Origin: a virus
Lineage: Duplodnaviria > Heunggongvirae > Uroviricota > Caudoviricetes
Reading direction: 5' to 3' (one strand)
DNA length: 40,305 bases
Virus record (IMG/VR): IMGVR_UViG_2721755720_000005
Shown here piece after piece: positions 2,573-21,777 of the stretch; position 1 is the stretch's first letter, and every line of letters starts with the position of its first letter. The notes beneath the pieces are model-generated. The model was not told the origin of the DNA. It ran no database searches and saw nothing but the letters and a program-made list of their open reading frames with translations. The position numbers and the translations under genes were made by a program.

Positions 2573-3505
2573 ATGACCGATATAAACGATGTAATCAAGA
2601 CCATTGATGAACTTATTGATGGCGGCGTACTGACGCAGTATGCCATCGCCAGAGAGGCGGGAATTTCCGACGGCACATTATCGGCTTTCCGTAAGGGGAA
2701 ATATAAAGGCGATAACGCTGCTGTGGCTGCATCCCTGTGTTCCTGGTATGAGAACTGGAATAAACAAAGCGCACTGCCCGAGCCGCCGCAGTTTGTGGAA
2801 ACGCAGACAGTCCAGGAGCTGCGCGCACTGTTTCAGGCGGTTCGCCTGATGGGCTGTATTAACGTCATCGTGGGCGTACCGGGTGTGGGTAAAACGGCCA
2901 CGGCCCGTAATTACTGTCAGGAGCAACCGAACACCTGGATGATCACCCTGTCGCCTGCGCATTCCAGCGTCACGGAGTGTCTGCTGGAGCTGGCAGAGGA
3001 ACTGGGGATTGATTACACCCGCGCGAACAAAGGGGCATTATCCCGCGCAATCCGCCGTCGCCTGATGGGAACGCGTGGACTGGTGATTGTTGATGAGGCG
3101 GATCATCTTGGTATTGACGGTCTGGAGCAACTGCGGGCAATCCAGGACGCCACGGGGATCGGGATGGTGCTTATTGGTAACCCGCGCGGACTGTTTAAAG
3201 GTGGACGCCGCGCCGTTGATGATTTATCGCGCCTGTTCAGCCGTCTTGCCCGTACAAAACAACTTCGCAAGGCCAAAAAGGCGGATGTGCTGGCCATTGC
3301 CAGGGCATGGGGGATCAGTGGTGAGGCCGAGCTGGCCGTCATGCAGGCTATCGCTGAAAAACCGGGAGCATTACGTGTTCTGACGCATACGCTTAACCAG
3401 GCGTGGATCACCGCCAGTGGTGAAGGCGCTGTGCTGACAGAAAAACATATTAATGCGGCCTTTAAAGAGGTTTATACCAACCCTGAATTACTCTCACAGG
3501 TGTGA
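2573..3505 (+). CDS. B: Mu B-like AAA+ ATPase, transposition target DNA activator
   Basis: 310 aa; Walker A GVPGVGKT, Walker B-like VIVDEAD; N-terminal HTH; follows A. Confidence 0.9.
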   Translation: MTDINDVIKTIDELIDGGVLTQYAIAREAGISDGTLSAFRKGKYKGDNAAVAASLCSWYENWNKQSALPEPPQFVETQTVQELRALFQAVRLMGCINVIVGVPGVGKTATARNYCQEQPNTWMITLSPAHSSVTECLLELAEELGIDYTRANKGALSRAIRRRLMGTRGLVIVDEADHLGIDGLEQLRAIQDATGIGMVLIGNPRGLFKGGRRAVDDLSRLFSRLARTKQLRKAKKADVLAIARAWGISGEAELAVMQAIAEKPGALRVLTHTLNQAWITASGEGAVLTEKHINAAFKEVYTNPELLSQV

Positions 3506-9394: not shown

Positions 9395-9817
9395 ATGGCT
9401 GAAACACAGATGAGCATGTTTGGTGACAGCGAACAGCTGCACGCGCTGATTGACCGTCTGGATGACATTCCTGATGATGAGCTGAAAAAGAACTGGCCCG
9501 GCACGCTGCGGGACCTGGTTGATGTGATCAGTGCTGAACTGCACCGTCAGGGGATTGAACCTGCTCAGGCGGGAATGCTTGCCCGTAAGGTTGCGGCCGC
9601 ACAGGCCGGGTACATGGGCGGGCGTGGTTATTATCTCCCGGTCGGTGAATCCCTTTTCACCGAACTGCGCAATAATGAGATTTTTTCCCGCTGGAGCCAG
9701 GGCGAAAAAATTGAAACCCTGCGCCGCCACTACCAGATGTCAGAGACGCAGATTTACTCCGTTATCCGTAACCAGCGCCGCCTGCATCAGGAACGCACGC
9801 AGCCCCGGCTTTTCTGA
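9395..9817 (+). CDS. Mor/C-family transcriptional activator (middle/late gene activator)
   Basis: 140 aa; SD GGAGG; C-terminal HTH; sits between the early terminator and the lysis genes. Confidence 0.8.
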   Translation: MAETQMSMFGDSEQLHALIDRLDDIPDDELKKNWPGTLRDLVDVISAELHRQGIEPAQAGMLARKVAAAQAGYMGGRGYYLPVGESLFTELRNNEIFSRWSQGEKIETLRRHYQMSETQIYSVIRNQRRLHQERTQPRLF

Positions 9818-9888
9818 TATTCCGCAAATCCTGCCCACTTTTTCCCACGGTTACGCTGACTCAGAGAACACCATGAGACAGCGTAACA

Positions 9889-17278: not shown

Positions 17279-17399
17279 CGGTCAGTGGCGGGGGTCGAAC
17301 CCGCATACATGATCCACCCGGAGGCAGGCACCAACTTTACCAGTTAAGCGTACACTGACCGCCTGTTTATTTTATATTCATCCTTTATGCGGAGGCAAT

Positions 17400-17873
17400 A
17401 TGTCATCCATTGATGCCGCTGTCGTTGTTGACGTTACGCGTCTCCAGCGGGTGTTTGCCCGGCTTCAGTTTGTGGGCGGCGGAAAAGACCTGGCCCGCAG
17501 TGTGGCGGAGAGTCTTCTGTCATCGTCAGAAATGGCGTTTGAACAGGAAAAAGAGCCGGACGGCGAACGCTGGCATGACTGGTCAGATCCTTACCGCAAG
17601 TGGCGTACCCGTAAGGGATACACGCCCGGTAAAATCCTGACGCTGAACGGGGATCTGGCCCGACGGCTGACCACGGATTATGGCGATACCTGGGCGCTGA
17701 TTGGATCAAATGAGCCTTATGCGGCCATTCATCAGTGGGGTGGCCTGCCCGGTATGCCACCGGGACCGGCGGCCATTGGTGCACGTCCGTATATGGGCTT
17801 TGATCAGGTGGCAGAACAGGAGATCATGGACGAAATCAGAAAACGCTTTAAAAAGGCCACAGAAACGCCGTAA
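17400..17873 (+). CDS. Virion morphogenesis protein (Mu G-like)
   Basis: 157 aa; SD GGAGG; position between F and the protease/scaffold gene. Confidence 0.8.
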   Translation: MSSIDAAVVVDVTRLQRVFARLQFVGGGKDLARSVAESLLSSSEMAFEQEKEPDGERWHDWSDPYRKWRTRKGYTPGKILTLNGDLARRLTTDYGDTWALIGSNEPYAAIHQWGGLPGMPPGPAAIGARPYMGFDQVAEQEIMDEIRKRFKKATETP

Positions 17874-18050
17874 TGGTTTAAGGTATACAAACGCATTACC
17901 TTACCCTCTTCAGGCGCGTGTCGTGATTTTCTAACCTGTATTTAACGGGCTTTAAAATCTGCGTGAAGCGCCTTTCTCATTTTTCCCCTGTCAGCACTTT
18001 CTGAAGTCCCGCAAAACCGGCCCTGAAAAACACCGGCTTATGCTGCCGGA

Positions 18051-19175
18051 ATGAAGACGAAAAACACGCCCAAACTTGCTTATGCCATTCTGAATGCCAT
18101 CAGCCTGTCCGCAGACGGGGACGGTGACTGGTGTCAGATCATGCCAGCCGGTCGGGTAAAGGCCCGTGACGGTCGCCCGGAAAAACCGGCGGAAGGCTGG
18201 CTGATTAACCATGCGGCCGTTGAGCGCATGGTATCTGGGGTCGTGGCACTCAATCAGCCGGTGAAGATTGACTATAACCACCAGTCACTGATTGAGGGGC
18301 ATGCGGCACCGGCTGCCGGTTTTGTCATGGCCTCGCCGGAGAACTTCCGTTTCAGTGAAGAGCGGGGTTTTGAAGTGCGTCCGAAGTGGAACCCTCCGGC
18401 CATTGAACACCTGCGCAATAACGAATTTCCCTGGTTTTCCCCGGTGATTGGTTATGACGAAATCACCGGTGAACCTGTTGAGCTCCGGATGCTGGCTATT
18501 ACCGGTGACCCCGGTCTGACTGGCATGAATCCTGTCGCCGCACTGTCGGCGGATGACCTTTATAACGCCTTAAACCCTCCTTTAAAGGACACCTCCATGA
18601 ATGAGCAATTACGCCAGTTGCTGACGGCGCTCGGTCTGACCGTGGCTGACGGTGACGAATTTACGCCGGAACTGGGCACGGCGGCGCTGTCTGCCCTTAC
18701 CGGGATCAAAACCCGTGCGGATGCGCACGACACCCTGAAAACGCAGGTTGCCAGCCTGTCGGCAGAGCTGGAAACCGCAAAAGGCACACCAACTGGCGGC
18801 ACTATTGATCTGACGAAATATGTGCCCGTTGAGACGTATAACGCCCTGCGTACCGAATATGTCGCGCTGTCGGCACAGCATGGCAGCACCACGCTGGAGC
18901 AGTTGCTGGATAAGGCCGAGTCCGAAGGACGCATTTTCAAAAGCGAACGCGGATACATGGAAGGACTCGGACAACAGATTGGTGTTGCGGCACTTTCTGC
19001 ACAGCTTGACGCCCGCCAGCCGGTTGCGGCTCTGACCACTCTTCAGACCGACACCGTGACCGTGCCGGATAAAAAGACCGCCACCGCTGTGCTGTCGGCT
19101 GAAGATATCGCCGCCGCCCATCTGCTGGGTAAAACCGAAGCCGAGTTCCTGAAAATGAAAGAGGAAATGCAATAA
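18051..19175 (+). CDS. Head maturation protease / scaffold (Mu I-like)
   Basis: 374 aa; immediately precedes the major head subunit gene. Confidence 0.8.
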   Translation: MKTKNTPKLAYAILNAISLSADGDGDWCQIMPAGRVKARDGRPEKPAEGWLINHAAVERMVSGVVALNQPVKIDYNHQSLIEGHAAPAAGFVMASPENFRFSEERGFEVRPKWNPPAIEHLRNNEFPWFSPVIGYDEITGEPVELRMLAITGDPGLTGMNPVAALSADDLYNALNPPLKDTSMNEQLRQLLTALGLTVADGDEFTPELGTAALSALTGIKTRADAHDTLKTQVASLSAELETAKGTPTGGTIDLTKYVPVETYNALRTEYVALSAQHGSTTLEQLLDKAESEGRIFKSERGYMEGLGQQIGVAALSAQLDARQPVAALTTLQTDTVTVPDKKTATAVLSAEDIAAAHLLGKTEAEFLKMKEEMQ

Positions 19176-20165: not shown

Positions 20166-20519
20166 ATGAATGAACATCACACTGTGGCAGCAACAGATGA
20201 TTCAGGTCTTCGGGTCAGTGGTGACAATCCTGTCACGGTACTGGCAGAAGTGCGTTGCAGTCGTACGCAGTTTCGTCGTGCGGGGTTCCTGTTCATGCGG
20301 GGACGCCAGCAGGTTGACGTCACCCCGGAGCAGCTTGCCCGACTGGAAGCGGAGCCATGCCTCACTGTACGAATACTACAGACGCCTGGTGATGATGCGG
20401 GAGCCGTGGCGGGTGTGGTTCATGCAGAGACCGGTGCAGATTTAGCCGAAGCCGGACAGGATGCTCCCCGGAAAAAGACCGGCAATAAAGCCAGACAGGC
20501 GAAAAAGGCTCGCGCATGA
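20166..20519 (+). CDS. Hypothetical head-associated protein
   Basis: 117 aa; strong SD GGAGGG; lysine-rich C-terminus. Confidence 0.55.
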   Translation: MNEHHTVAATDDSGLRVSGDNPVTVLAEVRCSRTQFRRAGFLFMRGRQQVDVTPEQLARLEAEPCLTVRILQTPGDDAGAVAGVVHAETGADLAEAGQDAPRKKTGNKARQAKKARA

Positions 20520-20935
20520 ATTACGCCACCGAAACCGATATGCGGGCACGTTACCGCGAGGATTTGCTCAGGCCATTACTGGCCGTGCCCCGTTCGGATG
20601 AACCGGACACGCGCAAGCTGAACCGGGCACTGACGGACGCGTCTGCCCTTATCGACAGTTACCTGTCTGCCCGTTACACGCTGCCGCTGGCGGTGGTTCC
20701 GGCGGTCCTTGTTCAGCATTGCTGCACGATTGCCTTTTATTACCTGTGCGATCAGCGGGCATCCGATCAGGCGCGTGACCGTTACCGTGAGGCGCTGGCC
20801 TGGCTGAAAGACGTCATGAACGGCAACGTGCCGGTCGGCGTGGATACCGACGGCGAAGCACCTGAATCCGGGGATTTACCGCAGGTGCAGTCTGATGCGG
20901 CGGTGTTCGGGCGCAACCAGAAGGGCTTTATATGA
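20516..20935 (+). CDS. Mu gp36-like head-tail connector protein
   Basis: 139 aa; position and size. Confidence 0.65.
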   Translation: MNYATETDMRARYREDLLRPLLAVPRSDEPDTRKLNRALTDASALIDSYLSARYTLPLAVVPAVLVQHCCTIAFYYLCDQRASDQARDRYREALAWLKDVMNGNVPVGVDTDGEAPESGDLPQVQSDAAVFGRNQKGFI

Positions 20936-21495
20936 TTACGGAAACCGAACAGGCATACATCGCCCGCATCCGTAAGTATTTCGGGAATGAACTGGTGTCT
21001 GTTGACACTCATCCCGGCGACTGGAGCGACAGCGTGCTGCGCACCATGCTGATTAACGCCCCGGCGATCTATGTTGCCTGGCTGGGTGCCGGTGAAGGGC
21101 GTACCCGTGGGCGTCTGGTCAGTCACTGGGTGTTCTACGTCATCGGCGACATGCTCAATGGCCGTGAGGTCAGCCGTCCGGGACTTTATCAGATTGTGGC
21201 CCGCCTGATTGCCGTACTGAACGGCTTCAGAACCGAAAAAACCTCACCGCTTTACTTTGAAAAGGCGGTTAACGGTTACACCGAAACGCAGGCAGACAGC
21301 GGAGCCGTGATGTACGCCCTTTATTTCTCATGCGAGGAAATGATCGACCCGCTGACGGATATCAGCTCGCTGGATGATTTCCTGCGCCATTACGAAACCT
21401 TTACCGAACCGGAAGGCACGCCGGAATTTAAGGCACACATCCGTCTGCCTGGTGCAACTGCCGCCGGTGAAAACGCCGGACTGTCAGAGGAATAA
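20932..21495 (+). CDS. Mu gp37-like head-tail joining protein
   Basis: 187 aa; position and size. Confidence 0.65.
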   Translation: MITETEQAYIARIRKYFGNELVSVDTHPGDWSDSVLRTMLINAPAIYVAWLGAGEGRTRGRLVSHWVFYVIGDMLNGREVSRPGLYQIVARLIAVLNGFRTEKTSPLYFEKAVNGYTETQADSGAVMYALYFSCEEMIDPLTDISSLDDFLRHYETFTEPEGTPEFKAHIRLPGATAAGENAGLSEE

Positions 21496-21498
21496 CAG

Positions 21499-21777
21499 AT
21501 GACAACCATTTTTATTAAACCTGCGCCGGGATGCCTGATTCGCGATCCCGACACGATGACTCCGCTCTCTCAGGACGGGGAAGAGAAACCCTTCACCCCG
21601 TTCTGGTGCCGCCGTCTTAATGATGGTGACGTCATTGTGGTGGATAAAACGGCGGAGCCTGCCCCGGCTGCCACAACAGGTAATACCGGCGAGGCTGCAA
21701 AACCAGCGGGAGCGGCAGCAGAAAAACCTGCGGCGGCGGCTGAAAAACCCGCAGCATCAGATAAGGGGACGTCCTGA
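21499..21777 (+). CDS. Mu gp38-like small protein with Ala/Pro/Lys-rich tail
   Basis: 92 aa; immediately precedes the sheath gene. Confidence 0.6.
   Translation: MTTIFIKPAPGCLIRDPDTMTPLSQDGEEKPFTPFWCRRLNDGDVIVVDKTAEPAPAATTGNTGEAAKPAGAAAEKPAAAAEKPAASDKGTS

What the first reader, a model, noticed from the sequence alone, without database searches (positions are those of the whole stretch)
17874..18050. Central G-I intergenic region: candidate strong gyrase site
In Mu a strong gyrase-binding site needed for efficient replicative transposition lies at the genome centre in the G-I intergenic region. This prophage has a 177-bp non-coding gap at the same place, about 18 kb from the ner end. The gap also contains a C-box-like TTTTCCCC motif that could belong to the late promoter of gene I.
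Basis: partly seen in the sequence, partly recalled or inferred. Interest (0 to 1): 0.45.

Follow-up and report, generated by a model that had tools for sequence, protein, structure and literature searches.

The report
Mu-type strong gyrase site, central gap

Summary
A 177-bp non-coding gap (17874-18050) lies between a G homologue and an I homologue in a Mu-like prophage inserted in hsdR.

The gyrase reading is supported by homology:
- Mu's strong gyrase site (SGS) finds its best match in the whole window inside the gap (17915-17948, 27/34, E=5e-4; 46/70, E=8e-5).
- The match falls on the Mu right arm, which is the essential part.
- The gap differs at 15 positions from the Sakai Sp18 gap, with none in the 68-nt right arm. 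A review reports the Sakai site as the only foreign site that replaced the Mu SGS.
- In 72 distinct G-I gaps from four gammaproteobacterial orders, 55 carry two or more TT(A/G)AA elements spaced only 10, 11 or 20-22 bp apart.

By alignment with Mu, I predict the 4-bp cleavage stagger at 17889-17892.

The C-box reading of TTTTCCCC is not supported. The motif is not enriched in the window and mutates freely among close relatives.

A better late promoter lies downstream: a dyad at 17999-18016, shared with the lys promoter, and a -10 TATGCT at 18039-18044. This geometry puts the transcript start on the ATG of gene I, so the mRNA may be leaderless.

Verdict: a real feature of an already known kind, and of low interest as a discovery.

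The parts
17400..17873 (+). Gene G homologue (virion morphogenesis / neck protein). By analogy with Mu, its last ~60 bases would form the left arm of the gyrase site.
   Evidence: PF05069, E=2.9e-34. 54% amino-acid identity to Mu G. In Mu the 133-bp SGS fragment spans 17812-17944, so its left arm lies in the 3' end of G.
17880..17902 (.). Predicted gyrase cleavage core: the dyad AAGGTA-N11-TACCTT, centred on 17891.
   Evidence: It aligns with the Mu core GGCATAAAATCAGCCG and with the cores of other enterobacterial loci, following the pattern GGYRYRMAAW. The crude W/S mask derived from the Topo-Seq consensus peaks locally at centre 17891 (z about 2.7, rank 157 of 40,000). This is the most polymorphic part of the site among Sp18-like alleles.
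17889..17892 (.). Predicted 4-bp cleavage stagger AAAC, with the top-strand cut at 17888/17889 and the bottom-strand cut at 17892/17893, give or take 1 bp. This is an inference from alignment and has not been measured.
   Evidence: The Mu stagger AATC is at record 17876-17879, fixed by centring the 133-bp Topo-Seq fragment and by the GenBank 'gyrase cut site' 17879-17880. It was transferred to the window through the core alignment.
17893..17975 (.). SGS right arm. It carries phased A/T elements: a degenerate R1 (CTCTTCAGGCGCG, 17906-17918), R2 (GATTTTCTAACC, 17925-17936), R3 (GTATTTAACGG, 17938-17948) and R4 (CTTTAAAATC, 17950-17959). TpA steps fall at 17932/3, 17943/4 and 17953/4, a spacing of 11 and 10 bp.
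   Evidence: Best match of the Mu SGS anywhere in the window: 17915-17948, 27/34, E=5e-4, extended to 46/70, E=8e-5. Best hit of a family profile: 17938-17970, E=0.044. Positions 17908-17975 are identical to Sakai Sp18. The arm is 98.6% identical to two diverged relatives, against 81-91% for the rest of the gap.
17912..17988 (+). Long imperfect inverted repeat (AGGCGC 17912-17917 pairing with GCGCCT 17968-17973) followed by the pyrimidine tract TTTCTCATTTTTCCCC. It may act as a terminator for the lys-G late transcript.
   Evidence: The RNA fold gives one long hairpin over 17912-17973. Hairpin plus T-rich tail recurs in Mu and in Citrobacter and Erwinia loci, and Pasteurellaceae loci have canonical terminators at this place. 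Against: the pattern scan calls no + strand terminator in the gap, and the T-run is replaced by C-runs in close relatives.
17997..18023 (+). Candidate binding site for the late activator (the C homologue encoded at 9395-9817): CTTTCTGAAGTCCCGCAAAACCGGCCC, with the dyad TTCTG-N8-CAAAA at 17999-18016.
   Evidence: The best non-self match of the I-proximal 61 nt in the whole window is the lys upstream region (9811-9836, 21/26, E=0.013). Within the prophage, exact TTCTG-N8-CAAA occurs only at 9812 and 17999. The dyad spans -52 to -35 from the predicted start, so it is centred at -43.5, the position reported for Mu C sites. The same dyad sits at -52 in Pasteurellaceae loci.
18039..18044 (+). Predicted -10 hexamer TATGCT of the gene I late promoter. 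It lies in the loop of the inverted repeat CCGGC/GCCGG (18033-18049).
   Evidence: The spacing from dyad to hexamer is the same 40 nt as at lys, where the hexamer is TACGCT at 9852-9857. In 34 of 72 distinct gaps the hexamer at -12 to -7 from the ATG has A2 and T6, and 24 of those also have C[AG]CAAA at about -41. The hexamer is retained in Sakai.
18051..19175 (+). Gene I homologue (head protease/scaffold). Its ATG is the predicted transcription start, which would make the mRNA leaderless.
   Evidence: PF10123, E=1.8e-73. Family residues are conserved from about position 12, so the start codon is not further downstream. There are 6 nt between the -10 hexamer and the ATG.

Best explanation
The 5' two thirds of the gap, together with the last bases of gene G, is a Mu-type strong gyrase site (SGS).

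Proposed mechanism:
- DNA gyrase binds with its cleavage centre at about 17889-17892.
- It wraps the right arm (about 17893-17975) around a GyrA C-terminal domain. Helically phased A/T elements in that arm favour bending.
- That arm is used as the T segment, so supercoiling is unusually processive.
- Because the site sits at the middle of the roughly 38.7-kb prophage, the supercoiled loop that grows from it brings the two prophage ends together. This allows transpososome assembly and fast replicative transposition after induction.

The 3' third of the gap is a separate module. It holds a C-type activator site and a -10 hexamer for the I (head) operon. A possible terminator for the preceding lys-G transcript overlaps the right arm.

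What is shown here: position, homology, conservation and phasing. What is inferred from work on Mu and on the Sakai allele: gyrase binding, the exact cut, and the effect on replication.
For: 1. The flanking genes are G and I homologues in Mu order. GenBank marks the Mu gyrase cut site 20 bp after the G stop, in a 196-bp G-I gap.
2. Searching the Mu SGS against the whole window gives its best hit in the gap: 17915-17948, 27/34, E=5e-4. The full Mu gap gives 46/70, E=8e-5. The matched part is the Mu right arm, +24 to +57 from the cut.
3. A profile built from 16 other loci also finds its best window hit in the gap (E=0.044).
4. Of 72 distinct G-I gaps from Enterobacterales, Pasteurellales, Vibrionales and Aeromonadales, 55 have two or more TT(A/G)AA elements, spaced only 10, 11, 20, 21 or 22 bp apart.
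5. Within the Sp18-like clade the right arm is the most conserved segment: 69/70 identical, against 81-91% for the rest of the gap and 67-93% for the start of I.
6. The Sakai Sp18 gap differs at 15 positions, none of them in 17908-17975. The review PMC10052514 says the Sakai site was the one foreign site that promoted Mu replication, and that the right arm is essential while the left arm is dispensable.
7. The predicted cut lies at fraction about 0.48 of the prophage, against 0.487 in Mu.
8. A crude mask from the Topo-Seq consensus ranks the Mu SGS 6th of 36,600 positions in Mu. In the window it peaks locally in the homologous register.
Against: - Intrinsic sequence statistics are weak. The window site ranks only 157th of 40,000 with the crude gyrase mask.
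- The 10-11 bp A/T periodicity of the arm is unremarkable (rank 772-4515).
- The window's clade has the most degenerate phased elements of the family, with one strict TT(A/G)AA against three or four elsewhere.
- The real Topo-Seq position matrix was not available, because the supplement was truncated.
- The primary papers on the Sakai site (PMC438558, PMC1347280) could not be read. That evidence rests on a review and on my recollection of the abstracts.
- The window differs from Sakai at three core positions (17875, 17887, 17892), whose effect is unknown.
- The left prophage end is not in the window, so centrality is inferred from a relative.
- The conserved block also folds as an RNA hairpin with a pyrimidine tail, which could explain part of its conservation.
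Confidence: 0.8

Rival explanations
1. The gap is only an operon junction. The conserved inverted repeat with its pyrimidine tail terminates the lys-G late transcript, the downstream part is the promoter of the I operon, and gyrase has no special role here.
For: The RNA fold shows one long hairpin over 17912-17973, followed by UUUCUCAUUUUU. Comparable hairpin plus T-rich tails occur in Mu, Citrobacter, Erwinia and Apirhabdus loci, and Pasteurellaceae loci have canonical terminators just before the promoter box. A promoter module is well supported in the 3' third of the gap.
Against: - The terminator scan finds no + strand terminator in the gap.
- The fold z-score of the gap is only -1.7.
- The T-run becomes TC7, C9 or T2C7 in close relatives, which would weaken a U-tract.
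- A terminator does not need elements spaced only at multiples of the helical repeat across 55 diverse gaps.
- The Mu site is a mapped gyrase cleavage site, and the Sakai allele substitutes for it.
- Termination may coexist with the gyrase site, but it cannot replace it as the explanation.
Confidence: 0.1
2. The phased TTTAAACG-like direct repeats are an array of binding sites for a sequence-specific or architectural DNA-binding protein. This could be phage-encoded, or a host protein such as IHF, Fis or HU. On this reading the protein organises the prophage centre, rather than the repeats being bending signals read by gyrase.
For: Three or four direct repeats of one 8-mer at about one helical turn look like an iteron-type protein array. 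PMC3820752 reports that the Mu prophage domain depends on IHF, Fis and HU as well as on the SGS.
Against: The window's own repeats are degenerate (TTCTAAC, TTTAAC, TTTAAAA), yet the near-identical Sakai allele works. That fits a physical bending signal better than a sequence-specific site. Literature quoted attributes the role of the right arm to wrapping on the GyrA C-terminal domain and to T-segment choice, including a cryo-EM structure of gyrase on the Mu SGS. No candidate protein was identified here.
Confidence: 0.05
3. The gap is a relic. It descends from an SGS, but in this prophage it no longer acts as a strong site, because of its degenerate repeats and changed core bases.
For: Of the Mu-like sites tested, those from Haemophilus and Salmonella were cleaved but did not support Mu replication (my recollection of the Oram and Pato 2004 abstract; the review says only the Sakai site worked). 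The window has three core differences from Sakai and weak intrinsic scores.
Against: The 68-nt right arm is identical to the functional Sakai allele, and the review says the right arm is the essential part. The core varies among many Sp18-like alleles that are otherwise intact. The window's prophage has full-length transposase, B, C, head and tail genes.
Confidence: 0.05

Closest known systems
Strong gyrase site of the Mu-like prophage Sp18 of E. coli O157:H7 Sakai (Oram and Pato 2004, J Bacteriol 186:4575)
   Same: Same gene context (G-I gap of 176 against 177 bp) and the same prophage family and host species. The gaps are 91.5% identical, with the 68-nt right arm (17908-17975) identical. Both are near the prophage centre, at 0.47 in Sp18 and about 0.48 here.
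   Different: There are 15 differences. Three lie near the predicted cleavage core (17875, 17887, 17892), one is at 17907, and the rest are in the promoter part. The insertion site differs (hsdR here, sorM in Sakai), and so does the immunity region. This allele has not itself been tested.
Bacteriophage Mu SGS (Pato, Howe and Higgins 1990; GenBank NC_000929 'gyrase cut site' 17879-17880)
   Same: Central G-I intergenic position. The cleavage core starts about 16-20 bp after the G stop, the left arm lies in the end of G, and the right arm carries phased T-run/A-run elements. The right arms align at 27/34, with the exact block GTATTTAACGG shared.
   Different: Overall gap identity is low outside the right arm. 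The first phased element is degenerate in the window. Downstream, Mu has an ATAACCCC C box and a 26-nt leader with a Shine-Dalgarno sequence, both of which the window lacks.
Generic E. coli gyrase cleavage motif from Topo-Seq (Sutormin et al. 2019, PMC6379681)
   Same: A 130-bp organisation with a central cleavage region and about 47-bp periodic G/C-A/T flanks that wrap the GyrA C-terminal domains. The window site shows a local score peak in the expected register.
   Different: Only a crude strong/weak mask of the published consensus could be applied. With it the window site is not among the top sites of the window (rank 157).
[quoted passage not shown]
   Same: A -10 hexamer without a -35, and an imperfect dyad centred at -43.5 for a dimeric Mor/C-family activator. 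The window encodes a 140-aa protein 40% identical to Mu C, directly before lys. Its lys and I upstream regions share a dyad with this geometry.
   Different: The dyad sequence is TTCTG-N8-CAAAA, not the TTAT...ATAA / ccATAAnCnC of Mu. For gene I the predicted start is the ATG itself, whereas Mu PI gives a leader of about 26 nt.

Membership tests
Mu-type strong gyrase site (SGS) | Lies in the G-I intergenic region of a transposable Mu-like prophage | tested here: met
   G (PF05069) and I (PF10123) flank the gap. The window also encodes transposase, B, a C homologue, portal, F, T and Mom.
Mu-type strong gyrase site (SGS) | Central position in the prophage; the literature cited describes a central location as obligatory for optimal replication | tested here: inconclusive
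   The right end is at 37922. The left end is outside the window. By analogy with strain M3 it lies 827 bp upstream, which gives fraction about 0.48, against 0.487 in Mu and 0.47 in Sakai Sp18.
Mu-type strong gyrase site (SGS) | Sequence homology to the Mu SGS, especially the right arm | tested here: met
   The top hit of the Mu SGS in the window is 17915-17948, 27/34, E=5e-4, or 46/70, E=8e-5 with the full Mu gap. The family profile's top hit is in the gap, E=0.044.
Mu-type strong gyrase site (SGS) | Extended set of helically phased anisotropic bending signals in the right arm | tested here: inconclusive
   Three elements have TpA steps 11 and 10 bp apart (17932/3, 17943/4, 17953/4), plus a degenerate first element. 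Only one strict TT(A/G)AA is present, and the Fourier power at 10-11 bp is unremarkable. In the wider family the phasing is clear.
Mu-type strong gyrase site (SGS) | High score with the gyrase cleavage motif | tested here: inconclusive
   The published matrix was not available. A crude consensus mask gives a local peak at 17891 with z about 2.7, rank 157 of 40,000. The Mu positive control ranks 6th.
Mu-type strong gyrase site (SGS) | Strong, specific quinolone-induced gyrase cleavage and enhanced processive supercoiling | not testable with these tools
   Reported for Mu and, from my recollection of the Oram and Pato 2004 abstract, for the Sakai allele. Not measured for this allele.
Mu-type strong gyrase site (SGS) | Needed for rapid replicative transposition after induction | not testable with these tools
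   The review states that the Sakai site was the only substitute that promoted Mu replication. The window's right arm is identical to Sakai's.
   All four Mu late promoters fit this rule. In the window ATAAnCnC occurs before mom (36768) but not in the gap. TTTTCCCC starts 31 nt before the weak candidate -10 CAAAAC (18012) and 58 nt before TATGCT, not 28 nt.
   There are 3 copies in the window against 2.07 expected; the other two lie inside coding genes. A looser form, TTTTTCCCACGG, is present before lys at 9839, but in the opposite order relative to the shared box. The motif reads TC7, C9, T2C7 or T4C3 in close relatives.
Mor/C-family activator-dependent promoter (my alternative, 17997-18044) | A -10 hexamer, no -35, and an imperfect dyad centred at -43.5 shared by late promoters of the same phage | tested here: met
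   The dyad at 17999-18016 and TATGCT at 18039-18044 have the same 40-nt geometry as the dyad at 9812-9829 and TACGCT at 9852-9857 before lys. A third site at 33090 is one base off. The -43.5 rule comes from PMC2582627. The transcript start itself is predicted, not mapped.
Intrinsic (Rho-independent) terminator | G+C-rich stem-loop directly followed by a U-tract | tested here: inconclusive
   A long imperfect hairpin at 17912-17973 is followed by an interrupted T/C tract. It is not called by the pattern scan, and the T-run is not conserved.

The most novel reading that the evidence does not exclude
The gap is a compact three-part control module that has not been described for the Sp18-like and Pasteurellaceae Mu-like phages:
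- a gyrase site whose right arm also forms the terminator hairpin of the lys-G transcript;
- directly after it, a C-type promoter whose -10 hexamer sits 6 nt before the start codon, so the head-operon mRNA begins at its AUG and is leaderless;
- an inverted repeat bracketing the -10.

In the Mu clade the same place holds a different C box, a leader of about 26 nt and a Shine-Dalgarno sequence.

Separately, the T3-A3-CG array with 20/21+11 spacing would serve as a sequence signature for predicting strong gyrase sites in Mu-like prophages across four gammaproteobacterial orders.
Probability: 0.35. Interest if true: 0.4.

Novelty: already known. Interest (0 to 1): 0.2.

Why it matters
The Mu SGS is the textbook case of a DNA sequence that makes gyrase act processively and organises a 37-kb element into its own supercoiled domain. 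This window adds another natural allele of the one non-Mu site known to substitute for it. That is useful as a data point but not as a discovery.

Two results may be of practical use:

- **Comparative picture of the site.** Among Sp18-like alleles the right arm is invariant while the cleavage core is polymorphic. Across 72 distinct gaps the phased elements keep strict helical spacing. This agrees with the published view that the right arm is the functional determinant, and it gives a simple signature for finding such sites.
- **Promoter geometry.** The lys and I upstream regions share one dyad-to-hexamer spacing, which points to the recognition site of the Sp18-type C activator. It also points to a possibly leaderless head-operon mRNA, which simple 5' end mapping could test.

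Tried and rejected
- **Primary papers.** I could not read the papers on the Sakai site and on the right arm (PMC438558, PMC1347280). I relied on a review and on my recollection of the abstracts.
- **Topo-Seq matrix.** The published matrix (Table DS10) was truncated in the stored supplement. I replaced it with a crude strong/weak mask of the consensus. This ranks the Mu SGS 6th in Mu but the window site only 157th, so it is suggestive and not decisive.
- **Repeat PWM.** A position weight matrix (PWM) of the TTTAAACG repeat built from other loci does not single out the gap in the window. The window's elements score 2.6-5.2 bits, and the densest cluster is a chance one in hsdR.
- **A/T periodicity.** Fourier power at 10-11 bp is unremarkable.
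- **TTTTCCCC as a shared late-promoter box.** Rejected.
- **CCGCAAAAC (18009) as the -10.** I considered it by analogy with Mu CAAACT. It is less likely, because it lacks the T at position 6 and because the same sequence forms part of the box shared with lys.
- **Other late promoters.** The 15-mer CCGCAAAWCCKGCCC and the dyad pattern have no good match before the P-equivalent gene or before mom. The other late promoters of this phage therefore remain unassigned. The mom region instead carries a Mu-like ATAATCCCC.
- **5' UTR hairpin for I.** Hairpins abut the ATG in 16 of 20 loci. In the window's clade the hairpin encloses the -10 and would lie upstream of the predicted start, so I do not claim an mRNA structure.
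- **Rfam.** It finds no known RNA family in the gap.

Full report
**1. The observation**

- The window carries a Mu-like prophage read from the c-ner intergenic region rightwards. The ner ATG is at 177, the transposase gene at 410-2497 and the B gene at 2573-3505.
- The ORF 17400-17873 is a Mu G homologue (PF05069, E=2.9e-34). The ORF 18051-19175 is a Mu I homologue (PF10123, E=1.8e-73). Portal, F and T homologues lie around them in Mu order.
- In Mu (NC_000929) G ends at 17859 and I starts at 18056. GenBank marks a 'gyrase cut site' at 17879-17880.

**2. Where the prophage ends, and whether the gap is central**

- Mom ends at 37794. From 37923 onwards the sequence is 100% identical to intact hsdR genes of other E. 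coli strains. The right end is therefore 37922, and the prophage sits in the type I restriction R subunit gene.
- The left end is not in the window. Strain M3 has the same immunity region (97.7% identity). Its repressor gene ends exactly at window base 0, and its left end (TATAACCAGGTGAATC...) lies 827 bp further left.
- That gives about 38.75 kb, close to the 38,759 bp annotated for Sp18 in Sakai.
- The predicted gyrase cut is at fraction about 0.48. The figure is 0.487 in Mu and 0.47 in Sp18.

**3. Homology to the Mu SGS**

- The 133-bp Mu SGS fragment used for Topo-Seq (supplement of PMC6379681) maps to Mu 17812-17944. Its central 4-bp stagger is AATC at 17876-17879.
- The left arm is therefore the end of gene G, and the right arm is intergenic.
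- Searching Mu 17812-17960 against the whole window on both strands gives its best hit in the gap: 17915-17948, 27/34, E=5e-4. The full Mu gap extends this to 46/70, E=8e-5.
- The matched segment is Mu +24 to +57, which is the right arm.
- The core also aligns. Mu reads GGCATAAAATCAGCCG and the window reads GGTATACAAACGCATT. Other enterobacterial loci fall between them (GGTATACAATGAGGCG, GGCGCGCAATCACGCG).
- Transferring the Mu stagger gives AAAC at 17889-17892. This is the centre of a local dyad, AAGGTA-N11-TACCTT, at 17880-17902.

**4. The experimentally tested relative**

- The G-I region occurs in 228 complete E. coli records. Most are O157:H7, and 192 carry the O157-type allele at 99% identity or more.
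- I retrieved Sp18 from Sakai itself.
- Its 176-bp gap differs from the window at 15 positions: three near the core (17875, 17887, 17892), one at 17907, none in 17908-17975, and eleven in the promoter part.
- The review PMC10052514 states three things. None of the alternative gyrase sites promoted Mu replication except the one from the Sakai Mu-like prophage. The right arm is essential. The left arm is dispensable.
- I could not read the primary papers.

**5. Family-wide conservation**

- With an alignment of I proteins I collected 18 loci from species genomes and 80 from viral contigs.
- They give 72 distinct G-I gaps, of which 68 are 160-250 bp long.
- Nearly all carry a short array of T3-4 A3 C G elements (consensus CATTTAAACGCGT) shortly after the G stop. 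The median distance is 36 bp among the 41 gaps with three or more elements.
- 41 gaps have three or more strictly phased TT(A/G)AA, and 14 have two.
- The spacings in these arrays are only 10, 11, 20, 21 or 22 bp.
- The usual layout is 20/21 + 11 in Enterobacterales and Vibrio, and 10 + 11 + 10 in Pasteurellaceae.
- This fits the 'phased anisotropic bending signals' that the literature assigns to the Mu right arm.
- The window's clade is the most degenerate version. Its elements are CTCTTCAGGCGCG, GATTTTCTAACC, GTATTTAACGG and CTTTAAAATC, and its last three TpA steps are 11 and 10 bp apart.
- Accordingly, a repeat PWM and Fourier analysis do not single out the gap. A profile of the other loci still puts its best window hit there (E=0.044).
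- Within the clade the right arm is the best conserved segment. It is 69/70 identical in two relatives whose I genes are only 67-93% identical.
- The core is the most polymorphic part.

**6. Gyrase motif**

- The published matrix was not available.
- A strong/weak mask of the published 133-bp consensus ranks the Mu SGS 6th of 36,600 positions in Mu.
- In the window it gives a local maximum at centre 17891, which is the homologous register. The z-score is only about 2.7 and the rank is 157.
- I treat this as consistent with the gyrase reading, not as proof.

**7. The rest of the gap**

- TTTTCCCC (17981-17988) is not enriched: 3 copies against 2.07 expected.
- It is not the Mu C box. All four Mu late promoters show ATAAnCnC exactly 28 nt before a -10: TAGACT, CAAACT, TATCCT and TAAGAT. 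That agrees with the -35 and spacer quoted for Pmom.
- In close relatives the motif reads TC7, C9, T2C7 or T4C3.
- It forms the pyrimidine tail after a long imperfect hairpin at 17912-17973. This may be a terminator for the lys-G transcript, but the evidence is mixed.

**8. A better late promoter**

- The window encodes one C homologue, 40% identical to Mu C, directly before lys.
- The lys and I upstream regions share TTTCTGAnnTnCCGCAAAnCCnGCCC. It is at 9810-9836 before lys and at 17997-18023 before I.
- Each copy contains the dyad TTCTG-N8-CAAA(T/A). Each lies exactly 40 nt before a -10 hexamer of the form TAYGCT: TACGCT at 9852 and TATGCT at 18039.
- This lys region is the best non-self match of the I-proximal 61 nt in the whole window (E=0.013).
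- Exact copies of the dyad within the prophage are only these two. A one-mismatch copy at 33090 precedes TATTCT and the gene at 33170.
- Counting +1 as the seventh base after the hexamer, the dyad spans -52 to -35 and is centred at -43.5. That is where Mu C binds.
- For gene I, +1 is then base 18051, the A of the ATG. The mRNA would be leaderless.
- The same rigid geometry recurs in Citrobacter and in eight Pasteurellaceae loci: C(A/G)CAAA at -41, the dyad at -52, and CATTAT, CATGCT or TAAGCT at or within a base of -12 to -7.
- In 34 of 72 distinct gaps the hexamer at -12 to -7 has A2 and T6.
- The Mu clade instead has the ATAA(A)CCC box, an xAAAAT -10 about 40 nt before the ATG, and a leader with a hairpin and a Shine-Dalgarno sequence.
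- This promoter model is a prediction. No transcript ends were available.

**9. Verdict**

- The gyrase-site reading is well supported. It corresponds to a feature already described for Mu and already tested for the almost identical Sakai allele.
- The C-box reading of TTTTCCCC is not supported, although a late promoter very probably lies a little further downstream.
- The finding is real but already known, so its interest is low.
- The promoter geometry and the family-wide repeat signature are the only parts that may be new.

Noticed in passing
window 17280-17359, minus strand (F-G intergenic gap 17279-17399): A tRNA-like element matches Rfam tRNA (RF00005) at 31.5 bits, above the gathering score of 29, with E=1.9e-4. 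It has an over-long anticodon region, and ARAGORN does not call it. RefSeq annotates 'tRNA-OTHER' at the same place in strain AST198. Mu has no F-G gap, because its two genes overlap.
   Followed up: partly
window 17997-18051; 9810-9864; 33090-33141: There is a shared late-promoter architecture: the dyad TTCTG-N8-CAAA(A/T), then 40 nt to a TAYGCT or TATTCT hexamer. For gene I the predicted transcript start is the A of the ATG, which would give a leaderless head-operon mRNA. The same geometry occurs in Citrobacter and Pasteurellaceae Mu-like prophages, but not in the Mu clade.
   Followed up: partly
window 18033-18049: The inverted repeat CCGGC-N7-GCCGG encloses the predicted -10 hexamer. Equivalent inverted repeats with different sequences abut the I start codon in 16 of 20 loci, for example Mu CTGCTCA...TGAGCAG, and Apirhabdus and Erwinia versions. 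Their role is unexplained.
   Followed up: partly
window 37922/37923 and ORF 37888-40305: The prophage right end lies inside the host hsdR gene (type I restriction enzyme R subunit). An ORF that starts in the last 35 bases of the prophage runs on into hsdR. The insertion presumably inactivates the restriction subunit.
   Followed up: partly
window 17979-17988 and relatives L031, L039, L044, L045: The pyrimidine run ATTTTTCCCC varies among close relatives. It reads TC7, C9, T2C7 or T4C3 while its length stays about the same. This looks like a hypervariable homopolymer tract.
   Followed up: no
window 36766-36780: The region before com/mom carries AAATAATCCCCACCC, which resembles the Mu C-box consensus. 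The lys and I promoters of the same prophage use a different dyad. No promoter could be assigned for the P-equivalent operon.
   Followed up: no
L003 (E. coli AST198) 20352-21569: The closest complete-genome relative over the G-I region (99.6% identical) has a deletion that fuses a truncated I gene to a downstream gene fragment. That copy of the prophage is defective.
   Followed up: no
L007 / L061 (Edwardsiella) and L021 (Pasteurella) G-I gaps: A few relatives have enlarged gaps of 676 and 493 bp. AT-rich DNA is inserted between the phased repeats and the I promoter. It may be a small moron gene, some of it possibly on the opposite strand.
   Followed up: no
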